A stretch of 64,000 nt of DNA, taken from positions 868,001-932,000 of the forward strand of contig OZ025791.1 of the NCBI GenBank assembly GCA_964019425.1, in the 5' to 3' direction. The translations under genes were made by a program, and so were the position numbers. The notes beneath the pieces were generated by a model. That model was not told the origin of the DNA and did no database searches. It saw nothing but the letters and a program-made list of their open reading frames with translations. Positions 5,356 through 61,100 of the stretch are shown piece after piece. This DNA is from Flectonema sp. DT1601 (Eukaryota). Numbering within the stretch: the stretch's first letter is position 1; every line of letters begins with the position of its first letter.

Positions 5356-7884
5356 ATGGCCCCCGAAGTGGATACAAAAAAACGACGAACTGGTGGTCGA
5401 ATCCGAACCCGAAATGCCAAAAGAGAACACAACATGAGAGAGCTACTTGAGAGGGTAGAAGAAGAAGATCTCAATCAGCAACTTATTAAAATAAATAAAA
5501 TAAAATTAGACCTTAAAAGAGCAGAGGAAATGCTAACCAGAATGGACCAAGCCTATAATAAAAGACTTGAAGAAGAAGAAGAAAAACGTCAACAAGAGGC
5601 TGCAAGACTTGCTGCGATGCCAATCATACCTCCAGTGCTACCATTTTATTCTGACTGGGCAGCTACTGATACTGAAGATGAATATATTTGTCAGGCTGCT
5701 ATAAATGAACACACGACAATGCCAAATTCAGATGACGAATCTGATAACATTCGTCCATTAGAGCCACAGGATCCTCTCGGACCAATCACTATTGGATTAG
5801 TTGGTCACGTTGCTCACGGTAAGTCTTCTCTTATTAAGATGCTCACAGGTAAATCAACAATGCAATTCAGAGCTGAGCGTTTAGCAAACGCTACTATGAA
5901 ATTAGGATACGCAGACGCGGTTCTTTATCGATCATTACACAGCACACGCGGACATAGAAGATACTACATGACTAGTGGTTCTCAACCAGTTATTGATCCT
6001 GTTCATCCTGATACAGGTGAGAAGTGTGAGTTTGTAAGAAAAGTATCATTCCTAGACTGTCCTGGTCACGAAAAGTATGCTGAAACAATGCTTTGTGGTG
6101 CAATCGTAATGGACGCTGCTATTGTAGTAGCAGCTGCGAATGAAGAGTTTCCCCAACCACAGACACTCGAACACCTCGATATCTTAAGAGAATACGGCAT
6201 CCCATCTGAGAATGTTGTAGTCGCTCATAATAAAGTTGACTTAGTTGGTGGTGCTGCAGTTAATCAACTTTCTGCTATAAGAAAATATGTAGGACCGAGT
6301 GCTGCAATTATCCCTTGTTCTGCTGTTCAAAGTGCTAACAGAGAAGCCATTGTCAGCGCCTTAGCTGCGATTGCCTGTCCAGAGAGAGACATGAACATCT
6401 CAACACCACCAGTGGTAAGAGTTATTCGTTCATTTAATATAAACAGAAGAACTGGTCAAGGAAGACGTAAAGATGAAATACTCGGAGGAGTACTCGGTGG
6501 TAGTGTTGTTAGTGGTCAACTGAGAGTTGGTCAAAAGATAACATTATACCCAGCAATGTTGACTGCTACTGTTCATTCTCTAATTGCTGATGGTACCCCA
6601 ACGAATACTGCTATACCAGGGGAACTCATAGGAATTGGTACTGACTTACACCCTGACCTTGCACAAGCAGATAGACTAGTTGGACAAGTTATAGGAACAA
6701 TCGACAACACTGTTGAGATGTTTTATAAAAGCGTTCATCTTACATCCGTTGACAGACGCGTTCGAGATGGCAGAAAATCATCAAAATTAAAATGCAATGA
6801 AGAAGTTAGACTAACAGTTGGCGCTACTCACGTCTCTGGTACTGTTTTATCCAGTAAGACCTCAGCAGGAACTGCACATATAGAAGTAAATAATGCTATA
6901 TGTACAACGTTTAATCAAAGGGTTATTATTTCTAGAAGGGATGGACATAGTTTTAAAATTGTTGCATCTGGTCTCGTCCGAACGGAGTCTCATCAAAAAG
7001 ATTTACAGAAATTATACAACGGACAGCAATCGAGTGATCAAACACTTGAGGAATTCTATAGCTCGTTAAAAAAGAAAAGCAAGTGCGTCGAAGCAAGAGA
7101 ACGAGGAAGGAGGATTAGAAGAACTGCAGTTGCAGCTGCGGCAGTTGAAGTCACGAAATCTCTTTCTGAAGCAGCTCGTAGACTTGATAATGTTGATGAC
7201 GACGCAACAAGTGTTGAGGAAGAACCTGTTGTAGAAAAGATAGAAGAGATTCAACCTGGATGGTCTGACGCCTCTGATACGTCTGTTCGAAAACTTAAGA
7301 AAAAGACTAAAAAGAAGAGACGCAAGAAGGCAAACCCTGAACCAAAAACCGAACGTACTGAAGAAGACCAGGAGCTTGATCGAAACATTGGAAACAGCGA
7401 CGCGCAATACGCACGAATGCTTTACTCTGCTCTTGGTAGTGTTAATTTAACAATTCAAGAAAAGTCTAATCTAAAGTTCAAAGTTCCCGCTCCCGCCATC
7501 ATCAAACTTACTCGCCATTGCGTTGGAGTTTCTAACTTTCCTCAAATTGTAAATATGATCAACAGACCTGCTGAACATTTAAAGAATTTTATCGCTACTG
7601 AACTCGGTATCAAAGCAAGCATTGACCAACAGGGTTGCCTACTACTTAGTAGACTCTCAAAGACATCTTCTGTACAAGTTGCTCTTCGGAAGTACGTCTG
7701 GATGTTTGTTGTCTGTAAAATGTGTAACAGCGGTACAGCAGTTCACAAGACTGATGGAATGACGGAGCTATTCTGCCAGAAATGTCATGCAACTAGAAAT
7801 GTTAACTTCAACCAAGTCTCTCTCTTTACAGCTGCTACCAAAAGGGAACGAAAGGTTGCTAGACAACAGGCTGTGGAAGCATAA
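5356..7884 (+). CDS. eIF2gamma-like GTPase fused to a C-terminal eIF2beta-like domain
   Basis: GHVAHGKS, TMKLGYA, RKVSFLDCPGHE, FPQPQTLEHL, NKVD and VIRSFNIN..GGVLGGS are eIF2gamma motifs. These are followed by a Lys box, YARML, NFPQIVNMINRPAEHLKNFIATELG and CKMC..CQKC (eIF2beta/eIF5 domain). Confidence 0.9.
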   Translation: MAPEVDTKKRRTGGRIRTRNAKREHNMRELLERVEEEDLNQQLIKINKIKLDLKRAEEMLTRMDQAYNKRLEEEEEKRQQEAARLAAMPIIPPVLPFYSDWAATDTEDEYICQAAINEHTTMPNSDDESDNIRPLEPQDPLGPITIGLVGHVAHGKSSLIKMLTGKSTMQFRAERLANATMKLGYADAVLYRSLHSTRGHRRYYMTSGSQPVIDPVHPDTGEKCEFVRKVSFLDCPGHEKYAETMLCGAIVMDAAIVVAAANEEFPQPQTLEHLDILREYGIPSENVVVAHNKVDLVGGAAVNQLSAIRKYVGPSAAIIPCSAVQSANREAIVSALAAIACPERDMNISTPPVVRVIRSFNINRRTGQGRRKDEILGGVLGGSVVSGQLRVGQKITLYPAMLTATVHSLIADGTPTNTAIPGELIGIGTDLHPDLAQADRLVGQVIGTIDNTVEMFYKSVHLTSVDRRVRDGRKSSKLKCNEEVRLTVGATHVSGTVLSSKTSAGTAHIEVNNAICTTFNQRVIISRRDGHSFKIVASGLVRTESHQKDLQKLYNGQQSSDQTLEEFYSSLKKKSKCVEARERGRRIRRTAVAAAAVEVTKSLSEAARRLDNVDDDATSVEEEPVVEKIEEIQPGWSDASDTSVRKLKKKTKKKRRKKANPEPKTERTEEDQELDRNIGNSDAQYARMLYSALGSVNLTIQEKSNLKFKVPAPAIIKLTRHCVGVSNFPQIVNMINRPAEHLKNFIATELGIKASIDQQGCLLLSRLSKTSSVQVALRKYVWMFVVCKMCNSGTAVHKTDGMTELFCQKCHATRNVNFNQVSLFTAATKRERKVARQQAVEA

Positions 7885-10212: not shown

Positions 10213-11343
10213 ATGCATCGTAACCTTATCCGCAATAGGATTTCATTGATAAAACAGAAGCGTTTCTGTAGTTCGTATGATAAGACATTCGAGTCAGTTC
10301 AGGACTACTATGGAAAGGTTCTTTCAACAAACAATGACTTAAAGACTACTGCGTGTACAGCTTTTGATCGACCACATCCAGTGATTTTAGAAAGTATAAA
10401 AAAGATTCCAGATGCAGTCACTGAAAAGTTCTACGGTTGTGGCACTCCTCTACCGTTAGGTATAAAAGATCTCACGATTTTAGATTTAGGAAGTGGTTCT
10501 GGTAGAGATGCTTATATCGCATCTGACTTAGTTGGTAAGAACGGAAGCGTTGTCGGCATCGATATGACAGAAGAACAGTTATCAGTAGCAACTGATAATG
10601 CTGATGAGTTCTGTACTAAGACTCTGGGATATCCTTCTTCAAACATGACTTTTAAAAAAGGTTTTATCGAATACCTCGACAAGGCTGGTATTGCTGATTC
10701 CTCCATTGACATGATCATATCAAACTGTGTTCAGAACTTATCACCTGATAAACCTCGTGTTATATCTGAAGCCTATAGGGTCTTAAAAGATGGAGGTGAG
10801 TTTCACTTTTCCGACGTCTATGCCGACAGAAGACTTCCAACTGCTGTCACATCAAACGAAGTACTTTGGGGAGAGTGTATCGCAGGAGCCATGTACATCG
10901 AAGACTTCGTTAGAGAAGTTCAGAAGGCAGGGTTTGATGATCCTCGTGTATTAGCTGCTACTGAGATTGTTGTTCAGGATCCAGAACTTCGTGAGATTTG
11001 TGGAGAAGCGAAGTTTTACTCAATCACTTACAGATTATTTAAGCTTCCTGGAATGCTTGAAACAAAGTGTGAAGACTATGGTCAGTTTGCTGTCTACAAG
11101 GGTACTATTCCTGGATACCCAAACTCTTTCACACTTGATGATCATCATAAGTTAGAAACAAACAAACCATTTTTAGTCTGCGGTAATACTGCTGCGATGT
11201 TAGGAGAGAATGGAGTTAGTTGGTTATCACCACACTTTACTATTCATGGTGATCGTAGTAATCATTATGGATTATTCGATTGTGGTCCTTCACCTGTAAC
11301 TACATCAACTGTTGCAGCTCCTGCTGGAGGAGCATGTTGTTAG
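10213..11343 (+). CDS. AS3MT: Arsenite methyltransferase (AS3MT/ArsM family)
   Basis: VQDYYGKVL..DLKTTAC, KFYGCG, ILDLGSGSGRD, VVGIDMT, IISNCV.NLSPDK, LWGECIAGA, CEDYGQ, VCGNTA and a C-terminal CC. Confidence 0.95.
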   Translation: MHRNLIRNRISLIKQKRFCSSYDKTFESVQDYYGKVLSTNNDLKTTACTAFDRPHPVILESIKKIPDAVTEKFYGCGTPLPLGIKDLTILDLGSGSGRDAYIASDLVGKNGSVVGIDMTEEQLSVATDNADEFCTKTLGYPSSNMTFKKGFIEYLDKAGIADSSIDMIISNCVQNLSPDKPRVISEAYRVLKDGGEFHFSDVYADRRLPTAVTSNEVLWGECIAGAMYIEDFVREVQKAGFDDPRVLAATEIVVQDPELREICGEAKFYSITYRLFKLPGMLETKCEDYGQFAVYKGTIPGYPNSFTLDDHHKLETNKPFLVCGNTAAMLGENGVSWLSPHFTIHGDRSNHYGLFDCGPSPVTTSTVAAPAGGACC

Positions 11344-15951: not shown

Positions 15952-16151
15952 NNNNNNNNNNNNNNNNNNNNNNNNNNNNNNNNNNNNNNNNNNNNNNNNN
16001 NNNNNNNNNNNNNNNNNNNNNNNNNNNNNNNNNNNNNNNNNNNNNNNNNNNNNNNNNNNNNNNNNNNNNNNNNNNNNNNNNNNNNNNNNNNNNNNNNNNN
16101 NNNNNNNNNNNNNNNNNNNNNNNNNNNNNNNNNNNNNNNNNNNNNNNNNNN
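15952..16151. other. Assembly gap (200 N)
   Basis: Run of N. Confidence 1.
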
Positions 16152-20588: not shown

Positions 20589-21422
20589 ATGCCTGTGATT
20601 AAACGGGTTATGATCATCGCTGGTAGTGATAGCGGTGGTGGAGCAGGTATTCAGGCAGACATAAAGACATGTGAAGCAACTGGTACCTACAGCATGACAG
20701 CAATAACTGCTTTGACAGCTCAAAATACCATTGGTGTTCACTCTGTCTGTAAAGTTGATTCCGATATGTTAAAAAAACAAATTGAAGTCTGCAGAGACGA
20801 TATTGGATGGGATGCCGTAAAAATAGGAATGCTACCCGACAAAGAGTCTGTTCAAATAGTATCGACTATAATTAAAAGTCATAAATTTGTTGTTACAGAT
20901 CCAGTCATGGTCGCAACATCAGGTGATCGACTCGTTTCAGAAGAGACGATGGAAGTAATGAAAAATGAATTATTCCCCAATTCTCTTATTATTACTCCAA
21001 ACATTCACGAGGCGTTAGAAATTATTTCAGAACCAAACACAATAATTTCATCTGTTGACGATATGAAAATCATTGCTAAGAAGCTTTATTCCATATGCAA
21101 GACTCCCAACATCCTCGTCAAAGGAGGTCATTTAAGTCCACCACAGACTGAAGCTTCTGACGTGTTATACATGTCTGAGTCAGACTCATATAAGGTTTTT
21201 GTGTCACCATTTGTAAACACCAGAAACACACATGGAACTGGATGTACTCTCTCTTCAGCAATCTCATCATACTTAGCACAGGGTCGCGACGTTCCTGATG
21301 CTGTTGAACTTGCTAAGCAATATTTGTATCGGATTTTAGCCTTGTCAGCTGATCTTAAAATAGGTACTGGTAAACAGGGACCAATGATGCATTCTCTACA
21401 TCGAAAAGTAGTTGAAAATTAA
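20589..21422 (+). CDS. thiD: Hydroxymethylpyrimidine/phosphomethylpyrimidine kinase
   Basis: IAGSDSGGGAGIQADIKT, TALTAQNT, VKIGML, DPVMVATSG, ITPN, VKGGH, NTHGTGCTLSSAI. Confidence 0.95.
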   Translation: MPVIKRVMIIAGSDSGGGAGIQADIKTCEATGTYSMTAITALTAQNTIGVHSVCKVDSDMLKKQIEVCRDDIGWDAVKIGMLPDKESVQIVSTIIKSHKFVVTDPVMVATSGDRLVSEETMEVMKNELFPNSLIITPNIHEALEIISEPNTIISSVDDMKIIAKKLYSICKTPNILVKGGHLSPPQTEASDVLYMSESDSYKVFVSPFVNTRNTHGTGCTLSSAISSYLAQGRDVPDAVELAKQYLYRILALSADLKIGTGKQGPMMHSLHRKVVEN

Positions 21423-24100: not shown

Positions 24101-24952
24101 ATGCAAGTTTTTGTGACGTGTCCGGATTGGGGACTCTCCGCAGTGACAGTGACCGCTGGTGTCGATTCCGTTGTGAGCGACGTGTTGACGGCGGCGGCTG
24201 GGGAGTGGGATGTCGATCCGGAGGAAGTTGAACTCTCGTTTGCTGGTGATACCCTTTGCGAGACTGATCGGCTGGCAGATCATGGAGTGGTTGCAAACAG
24301 TGAGTTGGAAATGTGGAAGAAGCAGTTTAGGATATTCGGTAAATGTTGGTTTGTTGATGATACAAAACGGGAAAAGTTGCTTCTTTGGATCAGAGACCAC
24401 ATTACGGAGAACTTATATCTGGACACTCCCACATTCGCAAAAGATGGTTGCCTCACTGTTGACGGTGACCTGCTTCCTTTAGATGCCGAGCAGGTTGCTT
24501 TCCGCAATTCAAATTCCAACAGCACAGCCATGTCATCAGTTACTAGAGTTGCAAATTATTTCTTGAATTCCTATTCAAATATCACTGCACTTGACCTTTC
24601 AGGTCTTAGTAGCGTCACCACTATTGGTAATTATTTCTTGTCTTTCTGTTCACTCACCGCACTTGACCTTTCGGGTCTTAGTAGCGTCACCATTATTGGT
24701 CATAATTTCTTGGCTCACTGTTTCCAAATCACTTCTCTTGACCTTTCAGGTTTTAGTAGTGTCGCCTTTATTAATCATAGTTTCTTGTTTTATTGTTCAG
24801 AAATCACTTCTCTTGACCTTTCAAGTCTAAGTAGTGTCACGAGAATTGGAATGAATTTTCTCAGTGAATGCAAAGCTCTTGAATCTGTACAGTTACCTGA
24901 AAGTAATAGCGCTCTCTTTGAGAAGAGTGTGGAGACAGCGATAAGTAATTAA
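24101..24952 (+). CDS. Ubiquitin-like domain plus leucine-rich repeat protein
   Basis: VELSFAGDTL..TDRLADHGVVANSELEM is Ubl-like. Four to five ~22-23-aa repeats of type ITALDLSGLSSVTTIGNYFLS are also visible at DNA level. Confidence 0.85.
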   Translation: MQVFVTCPDWGLSAVTVTAGVDSVVSDVLTAAAGEWDVDPEEVELSFAGDTLCETDRLADHGVVANSELEMWKKQFRIFGKCWFVDDTKREKLLLWIRDHITENLYLDTPTFAKDGCLTVDGDLLPLDAEQVAFRNSNSNSTAMSSVTRVANYFLNSYSNITALDLSGLSSVTTIGNYFLSFCSLTALDLSGLSSVTIIGHNFLAHCFQITSLDLSGFSSVAFINHSFLFYCSEITSLDLSSLSSVTRIGMNFLSECKALESVQLPESNSALFEKSVETAISN

Positions 24953-33554: not shown

Positions 33555-36500
33555 ATGTCGTATCTCCCTTCCGTTCAACTCCCACCTGCAAAAGTACATC
33601 AGATGTACAAAGGACTATTCCCTTCAGACATATATTTTCTACAACACTGCGGTGTTAAATCATCAAAAGGAAGGGCAAAGAAACGGCTGTTAGTCATCTG
33701 TAAGAACTTTGCAGCTGTTGGGTACATGGAAAAAGACTCAGCGGTAGTTAAAGAAATGGTCAAACACCAAGAAATTGAAAAAGTAGTAATGCAAGAAGCG
33801 GATAAAAGAACCGGAATATTTCGTAAAGAAGAACAGACTTCTGTATTATTCAAAGTAAAGAAAGCAGCTGATGGAAGTCGAACAAAACCTGATCTCCTAC
33901 TTAACCTTGTATCAGACGGTACTAACATGGAGGAGTCTTCAGGAGCAAAGAACTTAGAAACTATACTAAAAGCTATCCATTCATCTCGTTATGATAGTGA
34001 GCTTACTGTTGAATGGCTTAAAAAGAATGACTCTAAAAATAAAATTACTGATCAAGCTGAGAGAAAGCCTCCACCAGGATATAATAAACCTGAATCAAAA
34101 TTATCTGATGTTTACGGTAGACAACCTTCTGAAGCTCCTGGTCAATCTCCAACTCAACAAGAACCAAGTGCTTCACCTCCTCCTGGTGTTGCTGAAGTTG
34201 TTTATTTCATAAGCGAAAAGAATGAAACGACCGGAAAATACGCATTCATGCCTGGCGTTGAACAGCAGGGAATGCCTGTTTGGGGAAGACCTACAGGAGA
34301 ACGTCTTTATGTATCAAACACAACTGGTGTTTGGGTCATTGGTACTACTGAAACAATGAACTCAGATGCTTCATGGGTACGTGCAGCATCACGTGAACAT
34401 GGAAAGCTTCCTTGGGAAATCTCAGCCTGGCAGGCTCATAAAGATGGAAAATGGTCGATGCAAATTAATACAATTTGTACAACAGATTCAGATCTAGCTG
34501 AAGCTCTTCATCTTCAGTCTTCAGTGACGGCTATCAGTTCTAAGTTAGATCAAATCCCAGTTACTTCTCATAATAAAGATCAAGTTCAGGTTGCCAAAAG
34601 AGATATCTCTGAACACGCACACCTCCTGCAACCAAAAAGAAAAGGAGAATCGTTTACAGGTATGGCTTGATATTCTACAAACAGATCACAGGCAATCTCC
34701 TTCTCAGTATGATGACTAGAACACATTAGTACAAATCACAGGGAGCTGATTCTCTTGAAGTAGATGAGAAATGTTCATAACTGACTTCTGTCTTCCCTTC
34801 ACCACTTCCATGAGTGGCGTTCTCTTCTTTGATCCTTTCCCCTCTTCACCTCACTGTCGAATGATGACTAGAACACATTAGTACAAATCACAGGGAGCTG
34901 ATTCTCTTGAAGTAGATGAGAAACGTTCATAACTGACTTCTGTCTTCCCTTCGCCACTTCCATGGGTGGCGTTCTCTTCTTTGATCCCTTTCCCTCTTCA
35001 CCTCGCTGTCGAATGATGACTAGAACACATTAGTACAAATCACAGGGAGCTGATTCTCTTGAAGTAGATGAGAAATGTTCATAACTGACTTCTGTCTTCC
35101 CTTCGCCACTTCCATGAGTGGATCTCTTCTTTGATCCTTTCCCCTCTTCACCTCACTGTCGAATGATGACTAGAACACATTAGTACAAATCACAGGGAGC
35201 TGATTCTCTTGAAGTAGATGAGAAATGTTCATAACTGACTTCTGTCTTCCCTTCACCACTTCCATGAGTGGATCTCTTCTTTGCTCCTTTCCCCTCTTCA
35301 CCTCACTGTTGAATGATGACTAGAACACATTAGTACAAATCACAGGGAGCTGATTCTCTTGAAGTAGATGAGAAATGTTCATAACTGACTTCTGTCTTCC
35401 CTTCACCACTTCCATGAGTGGTTCTCTTCTTTGATCCTTTCCCCTCTTCACCTCACTGTTGAATGATGACTAGAACACATTAGTACAAATCACAGGGAGC
35501 TGATTCTCTTGAAGTAGATGAGAAATGTTCATAACTGACTTCTATCCTCTCTTCGCCACTTCCATGGGTGGCGTTCTCTTCTTTGATCCTTTTCCCTCTT
35601 CACCTCACTGTTGAATGATGACTAGAACACATTAGTACAAATCACAGGGAGCTGATTCTCTTGAAGTAGATGAGAAACGTTCATAACTGACTTCTATCCT
35701 CTCTTCGCCACTTCCATGGGTGGCGTTCTCTTCTTTGATCCTTTTCCCTCTTCACCTCACTGTTGAATGATGACTAGAACACATTAGTACAAATCACAGG
35801 GAGCTGATTCTCTTGAAGTAGATGAGAAATGTTCATAACTGACTTCTGTCTTCCCTTCACCACTTCCATGAGTGGATCTCTTCTTTGCTCCTTTTCCCTC
35901 TTCACCTCACTGTTGAATGATGACTAGAACACATTAGTACAAATCACAGGGAGCTGATTCTCTTGAAGTAGATGAGAAACGTTCATAACTGACTTCTATC
36001 CTCTCTTCGCCACTTCCATGGGTGGCGTTCTCTTCTTTGATCCTTTTCCCTCTTCACCTCACTGTCGAATGATGACTAGAACACATTAGTACAAATCACA
36101 GGGAGCTGATTCTCTTGAAGTAGATGAGAAACGTTCATAACTGACTTCTGTCTTCCCTTCACCACTTCCATGAGTGGTTCTCTTCTTTGATCCTTTCCCC
36201 TCTTCACCTCACTGTCGAATGATGACTAGAACACATTAGTACAAATCACAGGGAGCTGATTCTCTTGAAGTAGATGAGAAACGTTCATAACTGACTTCTA
36301 TCCTCTCTTCGCCACTTCCATGGGTGGCGTTCTCTTCTTTGATCCTTTTCCCTCTTCACCTCACTGTTGAATGATGACTAGAACACATTAGTACAAATCA
36401 CAGGGAGCTGATTCTCTTGAAGTAGATGAGAAACGTTCATAACTGACTTCTATCCTCTCTTCGCCACTTCCATGGGTGGCGTTCTCTTCTTTGATCCTTT

Positions 36501-39500
36501 TCCCTCTTCACCTCACTGTTGAATGATGACTAGAACACATTAGTACAAATCACAGGGAGCTGATTCTCTTGAAGTAGATGAGAAATGTTCATAACTGACT
36601 TCTATCCTCTCTTCGCCACTTCCATGGGTGGCGTTCTCTTCTTTGATCCTTTTCCCTCTTCACCTCACTGTCGAATGATGACTAGAACACATTAGTACAA
36701 ATCACAGGGAGCTGATTCTCTTGAAGTAGATGAGAAATGTTCATAACTGACTTCTGTCTTCCCTTCACCACTTCCATGAGTGGTTCTCTTCTTTGATCCT
36801 TTCCCCTCTTCACCTCACTGTTGAATGATGACTAGAACACATTAGTACAAATCACAGGGAGCTGATTCTCTTGAAGTAGATGAGAAACGTTCATAACTGA
36901 CTTCTATCCTCTCTTCGCCACTTCCATGGGTGGCGTTCTCTTCTTTGATCCTTTTCCCTCTTCACCTCACTGTTGAATGATGACTAGAACACATTAGTAC
37001 AAATCACAGGGAGCTGATTCTCTTGAAGTAGATGAGAAACGTTCATAACTGACTTCTATCCTCTCTTCGCCACTTCCATGGGTGGCGTTCTCTTCTTTGA
37101 TCCTTTTCCCTCTTCACCTCACTGTTGAATGATGACTAGAACACATTAGTACAAATCACAGGGAGCTGATTCTCTTGAAGTAGATGAGAAACGTTCATAA
37201 CTGACTTCTGTCTTCCCTTCGCCACTTCCATGGGTGGCGTTCTCTTCTTTGATCCCTTTCCCTCTTCACCTCGCTGTCGAATGATGACTAGAACACATTA
37301 GTACAAATCACAGGGAGCTGATTCTCTTGAAGTAGATGAGAAATGTTCATAACTGACTTCTGTCTTCCCTTCGCCACTTCCATGAGTGGATCTCTTCTTT
37401 GATCCTTTCCCCTCTTCACCTCACTGTCGAATGATGACTAGAACACATTAGTACAAATCACAGGGAGCTGATTCTCTTGAAGTAGATGAGAAATGTTCAT
37501 AACTGACTTCTGTCTTCCCTTCACCACTTCCATGAGTGGATCTCTTCTTTGCTCCTTTCCCCTCTTCACCTCACTGTTGAATGATGACTAGAACACATTA
37601 GTACAAATCACAGGGAGCTGATTCTCTTGAAGTAGATGAGAAATGTTCATAACTGACTTCTGTCTTCCCTTCACCACTTCCATGAGTGGTTCTCTTCTTT
37701 GATCCTTTCCCCTCTTCACCTCACTGTTGAATGATGACTAGAACACATTAGTACAAATCACAGGGAGCTGATTCTCTTGAAGTAGATGAGAAATGTTCAT
37801 AACTGACTTCTATCCTCTCTTCGCCACTTCCATGGGTGGCGTTCTCTTCTTTGATCCTTTTCCCTCTTCACCTCACTGTTGAATGATGACTAGAACACAT
37901 TAGTACAAATCACAGGGAGCTGATTCTCTTGAAGTAGATGAGAAACGTTCATAACTGACTTCTATCCTCTCTTCGCCACTTCCATGGGTGGCGTTCTCTT
38001 CTTTGATCCTTTTCCCTCTTCACCTCACTGTTGAATGATGACTAGAACACATTAGTACAAATCACAGGGAGCTGATTCTCTTGAAGTAGATGAGAAATGT
38101 TCATAACTGACTTCTGTCTTCCCTTCACCACTTCCATGAGTGGATCTCTTCTTTGCTCCTTTTCCCTCTTCACCTCACTGTTGAATGATGACTAGAACAC
38201 ATTAGTACAAATCACAGGGAGCTGATTCTCTTGAAGTAGATGAGAAACGTTCATAACTGACTTCTATCCTCTCTTCGCCACTTCCATGGGTGGCGTTCTC
38301 TTCTTTGATCCTTTTCCCTCTTCACCTCACTGTCGAATGATGACTAGAACACATTAGTACAAATCACAGGGAGCTGATTCTCTTGAAGTAGATGAGAAAC
38401 GTTCATAACTGACTTCTGTCTTCCCTTCACCACTTCCATGAGTGGTTCTCTTCTTTGATCCTTTCCCCTCTTCACCTCACTGTCGAATGATGACTAGAAC
38501 ACATTAGTACAAATCACAGGGAGCTGATTCTCTTGAAGTAGATGAGAAACGTTCATAACTGACTTCTATCCTCTCTTCGCCACTTCCATGGGTGGCGTTC
38601 TCTTCTTTGATCCTTTTCCCTCTTCACCTCACTGTTGAATGATGACTAGAACACATTAGTACAAATCACAGGGAGCTGATTCTCTTGAAGTAGATGAGAA
38701 ACGTTCATAACTGACTTCTATCCTCTCTTCGCCACTTCCATGGGTGGCGTTCTCTTCTTTGATCCTTTTCCCTCTTCACCTCACTGTTGAATGATGACTA
38801 GAACACATTAGTACAAATCACAGGGAGCTGATTCTCTTGAAGTAGATGAGAAATGTTCATAACTGACTTCTATCCTCTCTTCGCCACTTCCATGGGTGGC
38901 GTTCTCTTCTTTGATCCTTTTCCCTCTTCACCTCACTGTCGAATGATGACTAGAACACATTAGTACAAATCACAGGGAGCTGATTCTCTTGAAGTAGATG
39001 AGAAATGTTCATAACTGACTTCTGTCTTCCCTTCACCACTTCCATGAGTGGTTCTCTTCTTTGATCCTTTCCCCTCTTCACCTCACTGTTGAATGATGAC
39101 TAGAACACATTAGTACAAATCACAGGGAGCTGATTCTCTTGAAGTAGATGAGAAACGTTCATAACTGACTTCTATCCTCTCTTCGCCACTTCCATGGGTG
39201 GCGTTCTCTTCTTTGATCCTTTTCCCTCTTCACCTCACTGTTGAATGATGACTAGAACACATTAGTACAAATCACAGGGAGCTGATTCTCTTGAAGTAGA
39301 TGAGAAACGTTCATAACTGACTTCTATCCTCTCTTCGCCACTTCCATGGGTGGCGTTCTCTTCTTTGATCCTTTTCCCTCTTCACCTCACTGTCGAATGA
39401 TGACTAGAACACATTAGTACAAATCACAGGGAGCTGATTCTCTTGAAGTAGATGAGAAACGTTCATAACTGACTTCTGTCTTCCCTTCACCACTTCCATG

Positions 39501-42500
39501 AGTGGTTCTCTTCTTTGATCCTTTCCCCTCTTCACCTCACTGTCGAATGATGACTAGAACACATTAGTACAAATCACAGGGAGCTGATTCTCTTGAAGTA
39601 GATGAGAAACGTTCATAACTGACTTCTATCCTCTCTTCGCCACTTCCATGGGTGGCGTTCTCTTCTTTGATCCTTTTCCCTCTTCACCTCACTGTTGAAT
39701 GATGACTAGAACACATTAGTACAAATCACAGGGAGCTGATTCTCTTGAAGTAGATGAGAAACGTTCATAACTGACTTCTATCCTCTCTTCGCCACTTCCA
39801 TGGGTGGCGTTCTCTTCTTTGATCCTTTTCCCTCTTCACCTCACTGTTGAATGATGACTAGAACACATTAGTACAAATCACAGGGAGCTGATTCTCTTGA
39901 AGTAGATGAGAAATGTTCATAACTGACTTCTATCCTCTCTTCGCCACTTCCATGGGTGGCGTTCTCTTCTTTGATCCTTTTCCCTCTTCACCTCACTGTC
40001 GAATGATGACTAGAACACATTAGTACAAATCACAGGGAGCTGATTCTCTTGAAGTAGATGAGAAACGTTCATAACTGACTTCTGTCTTCCCTTCACCACT
40101 TCCATGAGTGGTTCTCTTCTTTGATCCTTTCCCCTCTTCACCTCACTGTTGAATGATGACTAGAACACATTAGTACAAATCACAGGGAGCTGATTCTCTT
40201 GAAGTAGATGAGAAACGTTCATAACTGACTTCTATCCTCTCTTCGCCACTTCCATGGGTGGCGTTCTCTTCTTTGATCCTTTTCCCTCTTCACCTCACTG
40301 TCGAATGATGACTAGAACACATTAGTACAAATCACAGGGAGCTGATTCTCTTGAAGTAGATGAGAAACGTTCATAACTGACTTCTGTCTTCCCTTCACCA
40401 CTTCCATGAGTGGTTCTCTTCTTTGATCCTTTCCCCTCTTCACCTCACTGTTGAATGATGACTAGAACACATTAGTACAAATCACAGGGAGCTGATTCTC
40501 TTGAAGTAGATGAGAAACGTTCATAACTGACTTCTATCCTCTCTTCGCCACTTCCATGGGTGGCGTTCTCTTCTTTGATCCTTTTCCCTCTTCACCTCAC
40601 TGTCGAATGATGACTAGAACACATTAGTACAAATCACAGGGAGCTGATTCTCTTGAAGTAGATGAGAAATGTTCATAACTGACTTCTATCCTCTATTCGC
40701 CACTTCCATGGGTGGCGTTCTCTTCTTTGCTCCTTTTCCCTCTCCACCCCAATGTTATTATTGATGTGTATATTATAAAGCTTTCAATAATAAACTAATT
40801 CAGGTCTTGAGAAGAATGAGTTGGTTCAGTTAGTTCAGAGACTTCAGAGATACTTGGAAAGGATTGCTAGGCTAACTCAACAAACAAGTGATCCTGAAAA
40901 GACTCAATCGGTAACTCAACCAGTAAAGAACTACAGCACAATTACAACAACTCGCCCAGGTGATGAAGAAATCCCAAAAACCGACTCTCTTAGATGGTCG
41001 TGGACTATGCAATCACAACAATTCTCAAGAGATGGTGACAGTAGACTTTATTGTACTTTAAAATGTACAGTTATAACATCACTTAAGGCTCGTCTAGCAC
41101 CGTGTGCTGTGGCTATTACTGATAAGGCAATGTATCTTTGTAATCTAGTTGATGGAAAGGTTTGTAATTATGATTCTGCCATCTTTTATTTTCAAGTGAG
41201 TTCTATTTAAAATGATCAAATCAAACAGGTACTCCACAGAGAACTGATAACAAATTTCAAAGCAGCGTTGCTATTTACTGACAAGCGGTGTCTCGGATTG
41301 AGGATACAGTCATCAGCAAACTCACTTGAACTTTATATTCAAACAGATGAATTTTGGCAAGAAGAGGCTATTGTGACGAATCTTAGAATCCCAGAAAATA
41401 GTCAAATTAAACAAACTCTGGATACCTACATTCCAAAACAATCAACTGAATTACGACTAATGCTAGAACTTGACCCCAGGATAGTCGAAGACTTACATCA
41501 AGACCTTAGACTAAAAGATGGAGAGATCGAACGCTGTCAAAACCTCCTACAGGAGGAGCGAAAAAAATTTCAAAATGAAGTTGATGATGTTAAGAAGTCG
41601 GAGGCTGATAGAGCTTATATACGTTCTCAGGAATCCTCCACTGAGTTAGCGAAATTACGGCATGCTCGGTATGTTTGTTTTCAGGTTGCGTAGGATTATA
41701 TTATCAAAGGAAATAAATAAAAATAAACACAGCAACCTCTCAACTGTAATCATCGACGAGATGGAATCCCGAAACAACAAACACCAACTCGAGATAGTTG
41801 AACGTGAGCATATCCTTCATCAGTTTTTTAGAGAACTTCAAGGACAAGAGCAAAGATGGAGAGATTGGGGTGAACAAAGAGTAGCAGCAGAGAGGCACCA
41901 GTTAGTATTAGCATGTACTGCTACTGTTGAGAAAGCCAATAGGGCGAAGGCCGAAAGCGAAGAATTGGAAAAACGTGTTAACCTTTTGGGAAGAATCACT
42001 CACCCAATAGCTCAAATAGCATGCGGTGAGAGGATCATGTTAAAGGAGTCAGAGAAACGAGCATTGATAGAACGTGACTGGGGGGTCTTCTTTGTAGTTG
42101 CACAGCAACGGAAGACTCAACAATCTACAGATACTTGGGTTGAAATTCAGCAAAAGAATGAAATCTTGCAAAAGAAATATAATTCTCAAAATAAGAATCT
42201 CCACGATATTACCGACAAACACACAGAAGTATCATCAGGTTATCAAGATGCTACCAACCGTGTTGGTTCTTTATTACGAGCGAATAAAGTACTTCAGCAG
42301 TCATTAGGAAGTTGTCAGTTTCTTGATATTCACAGAGTTCGTATGGACAGTATGCTTCTTACTGAAGACACTAATAGAAGAGCTATTGAAGTACAAGCTG
42401 CGGTATCTTATGAACAGTCTGTCTTAAAACTTGTTAGTTATCTTCTAAGTGACGCAGGTCAGATGGGAGCTCCTCTTTTATCATCAATTCACTCTTATGC

Positions 42501-43368
42501 CAGATCAGCTGCTAATGATGCTGATGCAATGGCACGTACTGGAGGTGGTGTTTCAGACTACAGTCTTCGATCATTAGCAACGACTTGTGGAAGAGTTTCA
42601 TCATCCCTTCCAAAACTTCAAAAAGAACAACAAGGAGCAATGGATATCGCTTCTTCTTTAATAAACTCTGCAGCATTAAATCTTGATCCTGATAATCTAT
42701 TTGGTCTTTCACTGTTTGATGATGACGACCCTACAGTTCAGGGAGGTATCTACAGTACAATGGAAGGATGGCTTCATCGTCAAGAACAGGGCATCTGGAC
42801 AAATCGATACTTTACATTCTCGAATGGGAATTTAGTTTACACGTCTCCTAATGGTAATAATACGCAATTACTACTCTCAATTGAAGGTCTCTGTAGTGTT
42901 ACATCAGAACCTAACAAAGGAGAAGACTACCCAAACGGAAAGTACGGTTCGTTTATTTGGAGTGTTGAGATGGTGAGCGGTTCTAGAGTAAAGTTCTCTG
43001 CCCCGACTATTGGTGAACGTCAAGAATGGATTAACTCATTCAAGGAAGCTATTACTCAACACTCGAAATACTCTGGGAGAGGTACAGCTCAACTAACTGC
43101 TAATAATAAATTAGTTAGAAAAGTTACGATTTCTCGTTCAGCATCAGGTGCGAATACCTGGGGATCTCCTTCTCCATCTCCTACACTACCTCCAAGAATG
43201 CAACCACTGCAGGCAATGTATCCACAAAGTCTTCAGGGATCTCAACATGGATATTCCAGTCAGGTAAGGCAACCATCTGTGCCAGAGAGGTCGTTTTCTC
43301 TTCCGACACCAACACCGAGAAAAGATGAAATTAATTCAGTTCCTAAGATTGATACCTCAATGTTATAA
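33555..43368 (+). CDS. ~1178-aa PH-like/coiled-coil/PH protein, host of the snoRNA array; exons 33555-34659, 40804-41159, 41229-41668, 41733-43368
   Basis: All three GT..AG introns preserve frame (phases 1, 0, 2) and join four ORF-track fragments. C-terminal PH domain MEGWLHRQEQGIWTNRYF..FSAPTIGERQEWINSF. Confidence 0.8.
34709..40748 (+). ncRNA. Intronic tandem array of 40 box C/D snoRNA copies (76-nt core in a 150/152-bp unit)
   Basis: In copy 1: C box ATGATGA 34709-34715, D' CTGA 34746-34749, C'-like TAGATGA 34761-34767, D CTGA 34781-34784. The core is invariant except one T/C site while the spacers vary. The last C box is at 40607. Confidence 0.85.
34861..39396 (+). repeat. Higher-order duplication of 15 units (period 2268 bp) within the array
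   Basis: The unit-length series and the rare cctcGctg variant of copy 2 (34861) recur from copy 17 (37129). Confidence 0.8.
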
Positions 43369-58180: not shown

Positions 58181-61100
58181 ATGATCACCACGTCAGACGT
58201 TTCTTATATAGTAGCTGTCGGTGGATTGCTGTATGCTATGCAGAGACAGCAAATGGGTGAGGTATGTCCTTCGGTTACTTTATTATCAAAACTGAGGACA
58301 CTACCAAAAAAATTACTACCCACTGGACATGGCGGAACAATATCTTTTTTTCTCCCCCCGTTCTTATCTTGCTCATAAAACGGGAAATTATATATTAATT
58401 ATTTACAGGGCAATTTAAAGGTCGGACATTACTGACTTTTGCATTTTTGTGGAAAAAAAAAAAAAAAAAGTTTCTCCCAAAATCAAATAAAATAAATAAT
58501 AATAATAATAATAATGAAAAGACAATACCAACGTGGGTTAGTATCGAGAATTCAAAAGAGATGGAAATTACAAAATTTGCTTCATAAAATGAATACGTCT
58601 GAAGGAAAGAAAGAGTTAAACGAAACACTTGGTGTTGGATTGTGGTCAAGCGATCAAAACTCAGGGACTGTTCCACCAACAGCTCATCATAAGACTTATA
58701 AAATCCCTCCATTTGACTATACATATAACAGATTTGAAAAAAGTTGCTCCATAGGAATAGATCTCGGAACAAGCAACAGCTGCGTATCGTATCTGGACCC
58801 TGACTCAAATGAACCAATCATCGTACCTATTGAAGGTAAGAATACAGTCCCAACAGTTATTGGACTTGAAAACTACAAAACTAGATATTTTGGAAAGGAA
58901 GCATCGAAATACTCTGGTAAGGCCAATGACATGAGCGTCTGTTCTGGAAAAAGACTTCTGGGAAAGAATATATATGATCAGAATGTTCCAAAGGAAGTCT
59001 ACGAAGATGTAATTACTTTAACTCAGGGAGAAAAAGGAATAGCTGTCAGGTTCACGAGGATCAAAGAAAAAAATATTCACACATCAACAATCACTAAAGA
59101 CCGAATCGAAGGTATTACCACAATGGAGTTCCCTGTTGTTCATATCATCGCTATGTTCTTGAGATACATAAAAACACAATCTGAATTATCAATCGGCATG
59201 AATGTTAATTCTGCCTGCATATCTGTTCCAGCTCACTTCAATGCTGCCCAAAGGAAAGCAACTGAAGATGCTGCCATTATCGCAGGTATGGATGTCAAAG
59301 AGATTATTGACGAACCATCTGCTGCAGCATTAGCCTACAGAGAGTTAGTCGCTGAAGGAACTGCCAGTGGTATTAAAAGAATAGCTGTATTCGATCTAGG
59401 TGGTGGAACTTTTGATTTAGCAATCTTAGAAATTAACTACGATAGCGGAGTGTCAAGGATCCTATCAGCTGGGGGTGACGACACCCTTGGAGGTGATGAT
59501 TTCGATCGCCTTCTCATTGACTATTGGAATGATGAGCTCAAAGATCTCGAGTATGACAGAGATCTATCAATTACCTTCAGCAATAGAGTACGAGAAGAGG
59601 CAATTAAAGCGAAAATTAACCTCGACGAATATGAGGAAGTCAGAACCTCTATCGTCGTGAGGATAAATACCTACACAGCAAAAAAGGTTCCTCTCTCCAT
59701 CACGCGTTTTGAGTACGAACAGCTTCTGCAACCACTTATAGTAAAGTTATCGAAGTGTGTGGACGAGACGTTTAAAAATACATCAATAGAACCTGAAGAT
59801 GTGGATGAAGTACTTCTCGTGGGGGAGATGACGAGAACTCCAGCAGTTCAAAAGTACATTAAAAAATGTTTTAAGAAAGAACCGCTGATTTCATCAATTG
59901 CTACTCCAGGAACGATTGTATCTCTTGGAACTACATTGCGAATCAAACAACTAAATGCTGTCGCGTCAGGGGAATCAGTCAAAGGATTCGTTTATGATAT
60001 TAACAGTCCGCAATATGAACGTACTCTAAATGTCGTACAAAAGTCAATTTATAAATTTCATAAATTCTGGAAGGAAAGAAAAAACTCACCACGATTGAGA
60101 CCTGGAGAAGCCCAGAGCAAGAAGAAGCTGGAAAAGGGACTCTCAGATACAGACATTGAAGAGATGTCAAGAGAGGTTATTGACAATGAATTATACATGA
60201 GAAAGGTAGCTCTAATTAAAAAACTAAAAGCAGACTACGAAGATCTCCTCCTCAGGATAAGTGATTGGAAGGAACCCCGTCAAGGATACTACGATAGCGA
60301 ATTCGATGAACTTATCGAAATTGCGAAGTACTGGAGCTCTTTTGTTACAAAGCAAAATGACAGAGAAGAATACATGGCTCAGGCGTATTGGGAACTGAAG
60401 GCTTACTTTGATGAGCTCTCTGGTGCATCAGAAAAGACTTCTCTTGAAGAAATCGCTTCCGATCCAGAACTATTTCAAGACGTTGCTGAGACCAACGTCC
60501 GTTCGTATGCAAAAACAACAAACGTGTCAAGAGAAGAAGTAGAAGAAGAAGAAGAAGATGACATCATTGAGGAACCCGTTAGAACTTTCCAACGATAGTG
60601 AAGTAATGTACATGTCTAAGTTCTAACCATTCTCTACGGGGAATTGTTAGAAGAGAACTTTACTATGGATGAGAAATAAACAACTGGAGAAAAAAAAAGA
60701 AGGAAAAAAAAAAACGACTGAAAAAACGAAAAATTATGTTTTCCAACGGAAGGATGTGGACAGCATGAATATCTATTCGATGTTATTTCTAAAAAAAGAA
60801 AAAAGGAATCGTTCCATTTGCCTGTCACAGTGGCCTCTCTGAAAAAGGTTTTACACAAGTCGTAAGAGTACTTGGAATTGCTCATTTCCTTTTTAACAGC
60901 GAGTAAACAAACACAGAACTCGAAGATTGCCGTCCTCTTTGCGTCACTATTTTGGATAGCTGTTCGAGTAGCCAACATAGGGAGTTGGTCTTCTCTGGTA
61001 TGTTATTGCACCGTAATATCTTTTTTTTTATTAATAAACCCCCCTAAGGGATACCACCACACAGATGTATCACGTTGCCTTAATTCATGCAGTTTTTTTG

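What the first reader, a model, noticed from the sequence alone, without database searches (positions are those of the whole stretch)
34660..40803. Forty tandem copies of one box C/D snoRNA filling a single 6.1-kb intron
Seen: the frame-preserving intron 34660-40803 is almost entirely 40 sense-strand units. Each unit has C (ATGATGA), D' (CTGA), C'-like and D (CTGA) boxes in 76 nt, then a 74-76-nt pyrimidine-rich spacer. The array begins exactly at a C box. The core has one variable site while the spacer has many, as expected under selection on the RNA. Established: trypanosomatids and Euglena have tandem snoRNA clusters, and vertebrate intronic snoRNAs are usually one per intron. Inference: an intron-encoded homopolymeric snoRNA polycistron that needs endonucleolytic release and amplifies dosage of one guide. 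It looks like a satellite and would be repeat-masked.
Basis: partly seen in the sequence, partly recalled or inferred. Interest (0 to 1): 0.9.

Follow-up and report, generated by a model that had tools for sequence, protein, structure and literature searches.

The report
Forty snoRNA copies in one intron
A predicted intron of a protein-coding gene in a marine flagellate (a diplonemid) is filled by 40 head-to-tail copies of a short sequence with the hallmarks of a guide RNA, which likely directs a chemical mark on the small ribosomal RNA, so what looks like satellite DNA is likely a heavily amplified RNA gene.

Summary
Observation confirmed. There are 40 sense-strand units of 150/152 nt (34709-40756), each a 76-nt C-D'-C'-D core plus a pyrimidine-rich spacer. 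Units 1-39 have 1 variable column in the core and 13 in the spacer. The GT-AG intron model is backed by a Rhynchopus transcriptome protein that aligns across all four exons. The host is a diplonemid close to Flectonema. New here is a target. The 16 nt before box D' are antisense to the 3' strand of 18S rRNA helix 28 in the standard guide register, and this is the best of all 304 16-mers of the unit. The match is 14/16 to ordinary diplonemid 18S and 16/16 to one divergent euglenozoan 18S that has a compensated helix. Predicted product: a 2'-O-methyl C in helix 28. Not shown: the host's own 18S, expression, splicing, release of the copies, and true copy number (a perfect 2.27-kb internal duplication could be an assembly artefact, leaving about 25 copies). 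Repeated snoRNA clusters (trypanosomes, Euglena) and intronic clusters (plants, algae) are known. A single-species 40-mer in one intron of a diplonemid is a new variant of them.

The parts
33555..34659 (+). Host gene exon 1 (ATG at 33555; 368 codons plus 1 base)
   Evidence: residues 10-368 align to P0084
34660..40803 (+). Predicted phase-1 GT-AG intron, 6144 nt
   Evidence: frame kept; homologue P0084 is collinear across the junction; splicing not shown
34660..34708 (+). Unique 49-nt leader, ending in a short pyrimidine run and an AG (34706-34707) two bases before the first C box; candidate alternative cis or trans acceptor
   Evidence: function inferred only
34709..40756 (+). Array of 40 head-to-tail units of 150/152 nt, 13 unit types
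34709..34784 (+). snoRNA-like core of unit 1 (76 nt): C box 34709-34715, D' 34746-34749, C'-like 34761-34767, D 34781-34784
   Evidence: sequence; only sub-threshold Rfam CD-box matches
34729..34744 (+). D' guide GTACAAATCACAGGGA, identical in all 40 units, antisense to the 3' strand of 18S helix 28
34785..34860 (+). Spacer of unit 1 (78% pyrimidine in unit 2), with a small hairpin at 34802-34817 whose 6-bp stem is kept in 40 of 40 units; candidate processing signal
   Evidence: folding z-scores not significant (-0.01 and -1.58)
34859..39393 (+). Higher-order duplication: 34859-37125 is identical to 37127-39393 (15 units)
40683..40803 (+). Tail after the last core: degenerate spacer, then an A/T-rich intron end with the AG acceptor
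40804..41195 (+). Host exon 2
41229..41668 (+). Host exon 3
41733..43368 (+). Host exon 4, with a PH domain

Best explanation
The array is 40 tandem copies of one likely box C/D snoRNA gene inside a predicted intron of a diplonemid protein-coding gene, and its D' guide is predicted to direct 2'-O-methylation of a cytidine in helix 28 of 18S rRNA. Shown: the boxes, the invariant guide, its antisense match in guide register, and the host gene model. Inferred: the copies are transcribed with the host pre-mRNA, leave with the spliced intron (or from the AG just before unit 1), are cut apart in the spacers, and are trimmed to about 80-nt RNAs protected by the C/D proteins. The target is the third C of GUCCCUG (Rfam SSU model position 1653). 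Also inferred: the array grew from one intronic snoRNA by unequal crossing-over and is homogenised by recombination, with selection keeping the core intact.
For: Box arrangement: 141 of 20000 shuffles. All 4 Rfam matches at E up to 10 are sense-strand CD-box families spanning exactly the core, though far below threshold. The 16-mer at positions 2-17 before D' is the single best of 304 unit 16-mers against 6096 nt of diplonemid and kinetoplastid rRNA (14/16); 14 of 3000 shuffled cores reached 14 at any of four box-adjacent windows. It matches the Rfam eukaryotic consensus at 13/16. L033, a euglenozoan 18S closest by identity to diplonemids (69-74%, against 61-63% to the others), pairs 16/16 (-26.0 kcal/mol) and has a compensated 5' strand of helix 28. 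In the scan with the two central bases left open, the only alternative to CC was the TG that the guide needs (1 of 6 hits). The host is near Flectonema (85% identity on one protein), whose 18S is described as divergent and basal (PMC10653844, passage). The core is conserved against the spacer. A Rhynchopus humris transcriptome protein aligns over host residues 10-1095, E 2e-100. Recombination among units: 26 of 91 site pairs fail the four-gamete test.
Against: The host's own 18S was not available. All 5 euglenozoan-type 18S from the open scan (L038, L039, L040, L042, L043) read TCCCTGCCATTTGTAC, which leaves two mismatches at guide positions 8-9, inside the duplex needed for methylation. L033 was fetched with a pattern that contained the guide, so its perfect match is selected. 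Its place is unresolved: grouping with diplonemids is not rejected (p-AU 0.47) but not shown. It was the only one of the 4 hits placed in the tree that fell with euglenozoans; L032 and L037 were left out. L033 lacks the diplonemid primer site. There is no Rfam hit at gathering score and no terminal stem. The D guide has no convincing target (best 8 of 10 or 10 of 12). I could not verify a conserved methylation at this exact base: Arabidopsis Cm1626/snoR70 is in helix 28, but in that table's numbering it lies 4 nt downstream, and it did not appear in the passages of two RiboMethSeq papers. The variable sites are linked and several are CpG transitions, so the core/spacer contrast is weaker than its p value.
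Confidence: 0.72

Rival explanations
1. The snoRNA is real but the amplification is a neutral by-product of a genome that readily duplicates pieces next to exons. Only one or a few copies (for example the ends, reached by exonucleases) mature, and there is no dosage function. This is compatible with the identity claimed in the best explanation and differs only on release and dosage.
For: D. papillatum has dozens of genes with tandem repeats of gene pieces beside or inside introns, including a 12-copy 5-kb array (PMC10161547, passages). The spacer hairpin is not more stable than shuffles. The host is not a ribosome-biogenesis gene (only a PH domain).
Against: The core is nearly invariant over 13 unit types while the spacer varies. 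The 6-bp hairpin stem is kept in 40 of 40 units, with an outer pair that is G-C in 24 and A-U in 9. The array edge falls exactly on box C.
Confidence: 0.35
2. The RNA works mainly as an abundant chaperone or processing snoRNA. It holds the 3' strand of helix 28 open during small-subunit assembly, with or without methylating it, and high copy number supplies the amount needed.
For: The guide covers the whole 3' strand of helix 28. In T. brucei, abundant C/D snoRNAs often have processing roles as well as guiding methylation (PMC6411936, passages).
Against: The pairing register is exactly that of an ordinary methylation guide. No second pairing site was found. There are no abundance data.
Confidence: 0.15
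3. The copy number is inflated by assembly. The real array is shorter (about 25 units if the perfect 15-unit duplication is false), though still multi-copy.
For: There are 2267 identical bases at offset 2268. The window is a scaffold with a 200-N gap.
Against: 13 distinct unit types in an ordered, non-periodic pattern cannot come from one or two copies. Recent unequal crossing-over gives the same picture.
Confidence: 0.2
4. It is an ordinary satellite whose unit carries C/D-like words and an rRNA-like 16-mer by chance, or a dead amplified snoRNA pseudogene.
For: No Rfam family at threshold. Two central mismatches to ordinary diplonemid 18S. A scan over many genomes inspects many tandem repeats, so rare coincidences will surface.
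Against: The joint chance of boxes (0.007) and guide match (0.005) is about 3e-5 per unit if the two are independent. The array is also on the sense strand, starts at box C, and conserves the core.
Confidence: 0.1

Closest known systems
Repeated, polycistronic snoRNA clusters of trypanosomatids (PMC3273796, passages)
   Same: Sister lineage. Head-to-tail snoRNA genes, clusters repeated in the genome, transcribed as one precursor and cut apart using intergenic information.
   Different: Those clusters mostly mix several C/D and H/ACA-like species, and their precursors are trans-spliced and polyadenylated transcripts. Kinetoplastids have almost no cis-introns (PMC11613528, passages). Here one species is repeated 40 times inside a cis-intron of a protein gene.
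Multi-copy, linked, polycistronic modification-guide snoRNA genes of Euglena gracilis (Moore and Russell 2012: not held; seen only as cited in PMC7671301 and as related statements in PMC2784804)
   Same: Euglenozoan, compact C/D RNA, clustered multi-copy genes.
   Different: I could not read whether any published Euglena cluster is intronic or single-species at this copy number. Two unchecked notes of this scan report 20- and 26-copy cassettes of 2-3 snoRNAs in a Euglena intron.
Intronic polycistronic snoRNA clusters of plants and green algae (Ostreococcus clusters 3 and 5; Chlamydomonas by title only) (PMC7671301, passages)
   Same: Several snoRNAs in one intron, which need release from a polycistronic precursor.
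   Different: Those described in the passages are few and different snoRNAs per cluster, not a near-identical 40-mer that looks like a satellite.
Mammalian SNORD115/SNORD116 tandem arrays (recalled, no call)
   Same: Tens of near-identical C/D snoRNA copies in tandem.
   Different: One snoRNA per intron of a non-coding host, with no rRNA target. Here all copies share one intron of a coding gene and the guide is antisense to 18S.
Arabidopsis snoR70 / 18S Cm1626 in helix 28 (PMC8351944, passage and supplement rows)
   Same: A C/D guide assigned to a cytidine on the same helix.
   Different: In that table's numbering (C1641 = human Cm1703) it is 15 nt before that base, against 19 nt here. Homology is not shown.

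Membership tests
Box C/D methylation-guide snoRNA | Box C (RUGAUGA) near the 5' end and box D (CUGA) at the 3' end, 60-120 nt apart | tested here: met
   ATGATGA at 1-7 and CTGA at 73-76 in 40 of 40 units
Box C/D methylation-guide snoRNA | Internal D' and C' boxes | tested here: met
   D' CTGA at 38-41 is perfect; C'-like TAGATGA at 53-59 is degenerate
Box C/D methylation-guide snoRNA | Antisense element of 10 nt or more directly before D or D', complementary to rRNA, tested on related organisms | tested here: inconclusive
   16/16 to L033; 14/16 with mismatches at positions 8-9 to L040, L042, L043; best of 304 windows, null 14 of 3000
Box C/D methylation-guide snoRNA | Perfect pairing with the host's own rRNA | not testable with these tools
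   no genome held; no runs listed
Box C/D methylation-guide snoRNA | Terminal stem flanking boxes C and D (common, not required) | tested here: not met
   flanks are not complementary; none in the folds
Box C/D methylation-guide snoRNA | Discrete small RNA bound by fibrillarin/Snu13, and 2'-O-methylation at D'+5 | not testable with these tools
   needs RNA data or bench work
Any Rfam snoRNA family (snR78, snR69, sR33 nearest) | Score at or above the family's gathering threshold | tested here: not met
   0 hits at gathering; best 16.5 bits against 48
Trypanosomatid/Euglena repeated snoRNA cluster | Head-to-tail repeated snoRNA genes on one strand | tested here: met
Trypanosomatid/Euglena repeated snoRNA cluster | Mix of different C/D and H/ACA-like (AGA) species in the unit | tested here: not met
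   one core per unit; no AGA in any spacer type
Intronic polycistronic snoRNA cluster | Several snoRNAs on the sense strand within one spliceosomal intron | tested here: met
   GT-AG intron model with a collinear homologue; splicing itself not observed
Intronic polycistronic snoRNA cluster | Endonucleolytic release of individual RNAs | not testable with these tools
   the spacer hairpin is only a candidate

The most novel reading that the evidence does not exclude
Diplonemids set the dose of a single snoRNA by expanding it into a satellite-like homopolymer inside a host intron. This RNA is needed in bulk because it holds the 3' strand of 18S helix 28, the neck of the small subunit, open during ribosome assembly, with guide and rRNA helix having changed together in the Flectonema lineage. 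Such arrays would be a hidden class of RNA genes lost to repeat-masking.
Probability: 0.15. Interest if true: 0.8.

Novelty: new variant of a known kind. Interest (0 to 1): 0.58.

Why it matters
It gives a first candidate modification-guide snoRNA for diplonemids; I found no paper on these, and the D. papillatum genome paper's text and 7 readable supplements do not contain the word. The prediction is precise and cheap to test: one base of 18S. It shows that a repeat that annotation pipelines would mask can be an RNA gene under selection. It implies an endonuclease step for intronic RNAs in a lineage where that enzyme is unnamed. The two core alleles offer a built-in marker for asking how many copies of such an array really mature.

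Tried and rejected
No whole genome was held. No sequencing run was listed (none was listed, which is no evidence), so no reads were laid. Rfam gave nothing at gathering. A word-index search for long homologues of exon 1 found none; the full HMMER search did. The 16-nt guide in viral contigs gave 31 hits that I took as chance matches and did not analyse; a diplonemid primer site and the open rRNA pattern gave 0 there. A protein-coding reading of the array was rejected: all six frames have stops within three units. A scan of the rest of the window for C..D pairs gave 6 candidates, all overlapping long ORFs or antisense to them, and no second guide copy outside the array. An H/ACA-like RNA in the spacer was rejected (no AGA). 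No target was found for the D guide in SSU, 5.8S, the 5' part of a diplonemid LSU or a kinetoplastid LSU; snRNAs and the 3' half of a diplonemid LSU were not available. The weak snR78 match is not taken as homology. No diplonemid 18S sequence was found in paper text or readable supplements. My first idea that the target equals Arabidopsis Cm1626 did not survive the numbering check. A recalled Euglena Cm2123 could not be checked. Papers not held: Moore and Russell 2012, Moore 2018, Liang 2005, Chen 2008.
Full report
1. Observation. The array is as described. TRF gives 40.0 copies of a 152-nt unit at 34709-40756. Splitting at box C gives 40 units of 150 or 152 nt and 13 types, in the order ABCDEFGHIJGGKEGG BCDEFGHIJGGKEG IJGGK LILIM. 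Each unit has a 76-nt core with box C (1-7), D' (38-41), a degenerate C' (53-59) and D (73-76), then a spacer that is 78% pyrimidine in unit 2. The core has 1 variable column of 76. The spacer has 13 of 76 in units 1-39 (Fisher p 0.001; 0.009 after collapsing linked sites) and 19 with the last unit. The sites are not independent and several are CpG transitions, so this contrast is suggestive rather than exact. The box arrangement arose in 141 of 20000 shuffles. All six frames of the array are closed. A 15-unit block is duplicated perfectly (2267 identical bases at offset 2268), and 26 of 91 site pairs fail the four-gamete test, so units recombine.

2. Organism and host gene. A neighbouring CPSF30 has diplonemid best hits (54-58%), and another neighbour is 85% identical to a Flectonema neradi protein. 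The window is therefore from a diplonemid near Flectonema. The host model has exons 33555-34659, 40804-41195, 41229-41668 and 41733-43368, all introns GT-AG, giving one 1190-aa frame with a PH domain near the end. A Rhynchopus humris transcriptome protein (P0084, 1289 aa) aligns over residues 10-1095 at 27%, E 2e-100, across all three junctions. A D. papillatum protein also spans the first junction (residues 205-525). The array thus lies between two exons of one conserved gene. Splicing in this organism was not observed.

3. Target. Rfam has no family at gathering score; the 4 matches at E up to 10 are all sense-strand CD-box families over the core. The 16 nt at positions 2-17 before D' (GTACAAATCACAGGGA, identical in 40 of 40 units) are antisense to the 3' strand of 18S helix 28, matching the Rfam consensus UCCCUGCCCUUUGUAC at 13 of 16. 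A scan of prokaryotic assemblies with the two central bases left open returned 6 contaminant eukaryotic 18S contigs. L042 and L043 carry the diplonemid-specific primer site of PMC12772313 perfectly, and L039 groups with them. Against L043 rRNA plus a kinetoplastid LSU half (6096 nt), the guide is the best of all 304 16-mers of the unit on both strands, at 14/16. Shuffled cores reached 14 at a box-adjacent window in 14 of 3000 trials. The two mismatches fall at guide positions 8-9, which would impair a guide, and 5 of the 6 open-scan hits have this CC form. The sixth (L041, not euglenozoan) has the TG form that the guide needs. A metagenome scan for the TG form gave 6 hits, all eukaryotic 18S. 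One, L033, falls with euglenozoans at 100/100 on a long branch, is closest by identity to the diplonemids (69-74%), pairs 16/16 with the guide, and has a compensated 5' strand. Its grouping with diplonemids is neither shown nor rejected (p-AU 0.47; 51 shared derived columns against 37 and 30 for the alternatives), and it lacks the diplonemid primer site. L032, L037 and L038 were left out of the trees. Flectonema 18S is described as divergent and basal (PMC10653844), which fits a variant helix, but I could not obtain the host's 18S. By the D'+5 rule the target is the third C of GUCCCUG (model position 1653, L033:1950), 19 nt before the C that I recall as E. coli C1402 (= human Cm1703). Arabidopsis has a listed Cm1626/snoR70 in helix 28, but the table's numbering puts it 4 nt away. 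A Euglena counterpart is only recalled. The D guide has no convincing target and holds the one variable core site.

4. Mechanism. Most likely (0.72) this is one methylation-guide snoRNA gene, amplified in place. Inferred steps are transcription with the host pre-mRNA, removal of the intron, cuts in the spacers, trimming to the protein-protected core, pairing with helix 28, and methylation. Forty RNAs in one intron cannot all be freed by trimming from the ends, so internal cuts are needed if inner copies mature. Trypanosome clusters are cut using intergenic information by an unidentified enzyme (PMC3273796). A small spacer hairpin keeps a 6-bp stem in 40 of 40 units, with an outer pair that is G-C in 24 and A-U in 9, but it is not unusually stable. 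An AG two bases before the first C box offers a second route, a trans-spliced precursor as in trypanosomes. Whether the amplification serves dosage is open. D. papillatum often carries tandem repeats of gene pieces beside exons (PMC10161547), so neutral growth is a serious rival. A chaperone role on helix 28 is the bolder rival, by analogy with abundant dual-function snoRNAs of T. brucei (PMC6411936). Copy number may be about 25 if the perfect duplication is an assembly artefact, but not one or two.

5. Comparison and novelty. It works like a box C/D methylation guide. Membership is met for the boxes, inconclusive for pairing until the host 18S is read, and untestable here for expression. It belongs to no Rfam family. 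Repeated polycistronic clusters are known in trypanosomes and Euglena, and intronic clusters in plants and algae. Unchecked notes of this scan describe 20- and 26-copy intronic cassettes in a Euglena-like genome, so the layout may recur in Euglenozoa. What differs here is a single species repeated 40 times in one intron of a coding gene, in a group for which searches listed no snoRNA-gene study. Verdict: new variant of a known kind, interest 0.58.

6. What I saw of each paper. Passages only, by term search: PMC12772313, PMC10161547, PMC11613528, PMC9082867, PMC2784804, PMC7672448, PMC8351944, PMC8583080, PMC8053127, PMC7671301, PMC6411936, PMC3273796, PMC5845003, PMC10653844, and bioRxiv 10.1101/2020.05.14.095992. 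Supplements searched by term: PMC10161547 (7 files), PMC9082867, PMC8351944. File lists only: PMC5845003, PMC10653844. Not readable: the supplement of PMC7672448, which may list Euglena 18S modifications, and the external alignment deposit named in PMC9082867, which may hold diplonemid 18S. Not held: Moore and Russell 2012, Moore 2018, Liang 2005, Chen 2008. SNORD115/116, the D'+5 rule and the helix numbering are recalled knowledge.

Noticed in passing
window 5356-7884 (+): An 842-aa protein fusing an eIF2-gamma-like GTPase (GTP_EFTU, D2, eIF2_C) to a C-terminal eIF2-beta/eIF5 domain. The same fusion is in Flectonema neradi (85%), Diplonema ambulator (44%) and two unnamed ENA proteins; most other hits are plain eIF2-gamma, and two unnamed environmental proteins also carry both domains.
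   Followed up: partly
window 34706-34707: An AG after a pyrimidine run, two bases before the first C box. Splicing 34660-34707 would give a 48-nt intron and an immediate stop codon. It could also be a trans-splice site for a snoRNA precursor.
   Followed up: partly
window 34200-34480 (exon 1): Host residues about 205-325 form an unnamed domain found, often in several copies, in most of the 74 hits; no Pfam match.
   Followed up: no
L033:1947-1962 and its helix-28 5' strand: A divergent euglenozoan 18S with a compensated change in helix 28. A second, unrelated eukaryote group (L034-L036, L041) has the same 3' strand.
   Followed up: partly
L040, L042, L043: Kinetoplastid-like and diplonemid rDNA contigs sit inside bacterial MAGs in the genome collection: eukaryotic contamination.
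   Followed up: no
window 10213-11343, 20589-21422, 24104-24952, 58514-60598: A SAM-dependent methyltransferase (arsenite-methyltransferase-like by recall), a phosphomethylpyrimidine kinase, a BspA-type LRR protein and a divergent Hsp70.
   Followed up: no
window 15952-16151: A 200-N scaffold gap.
   Followed up: no
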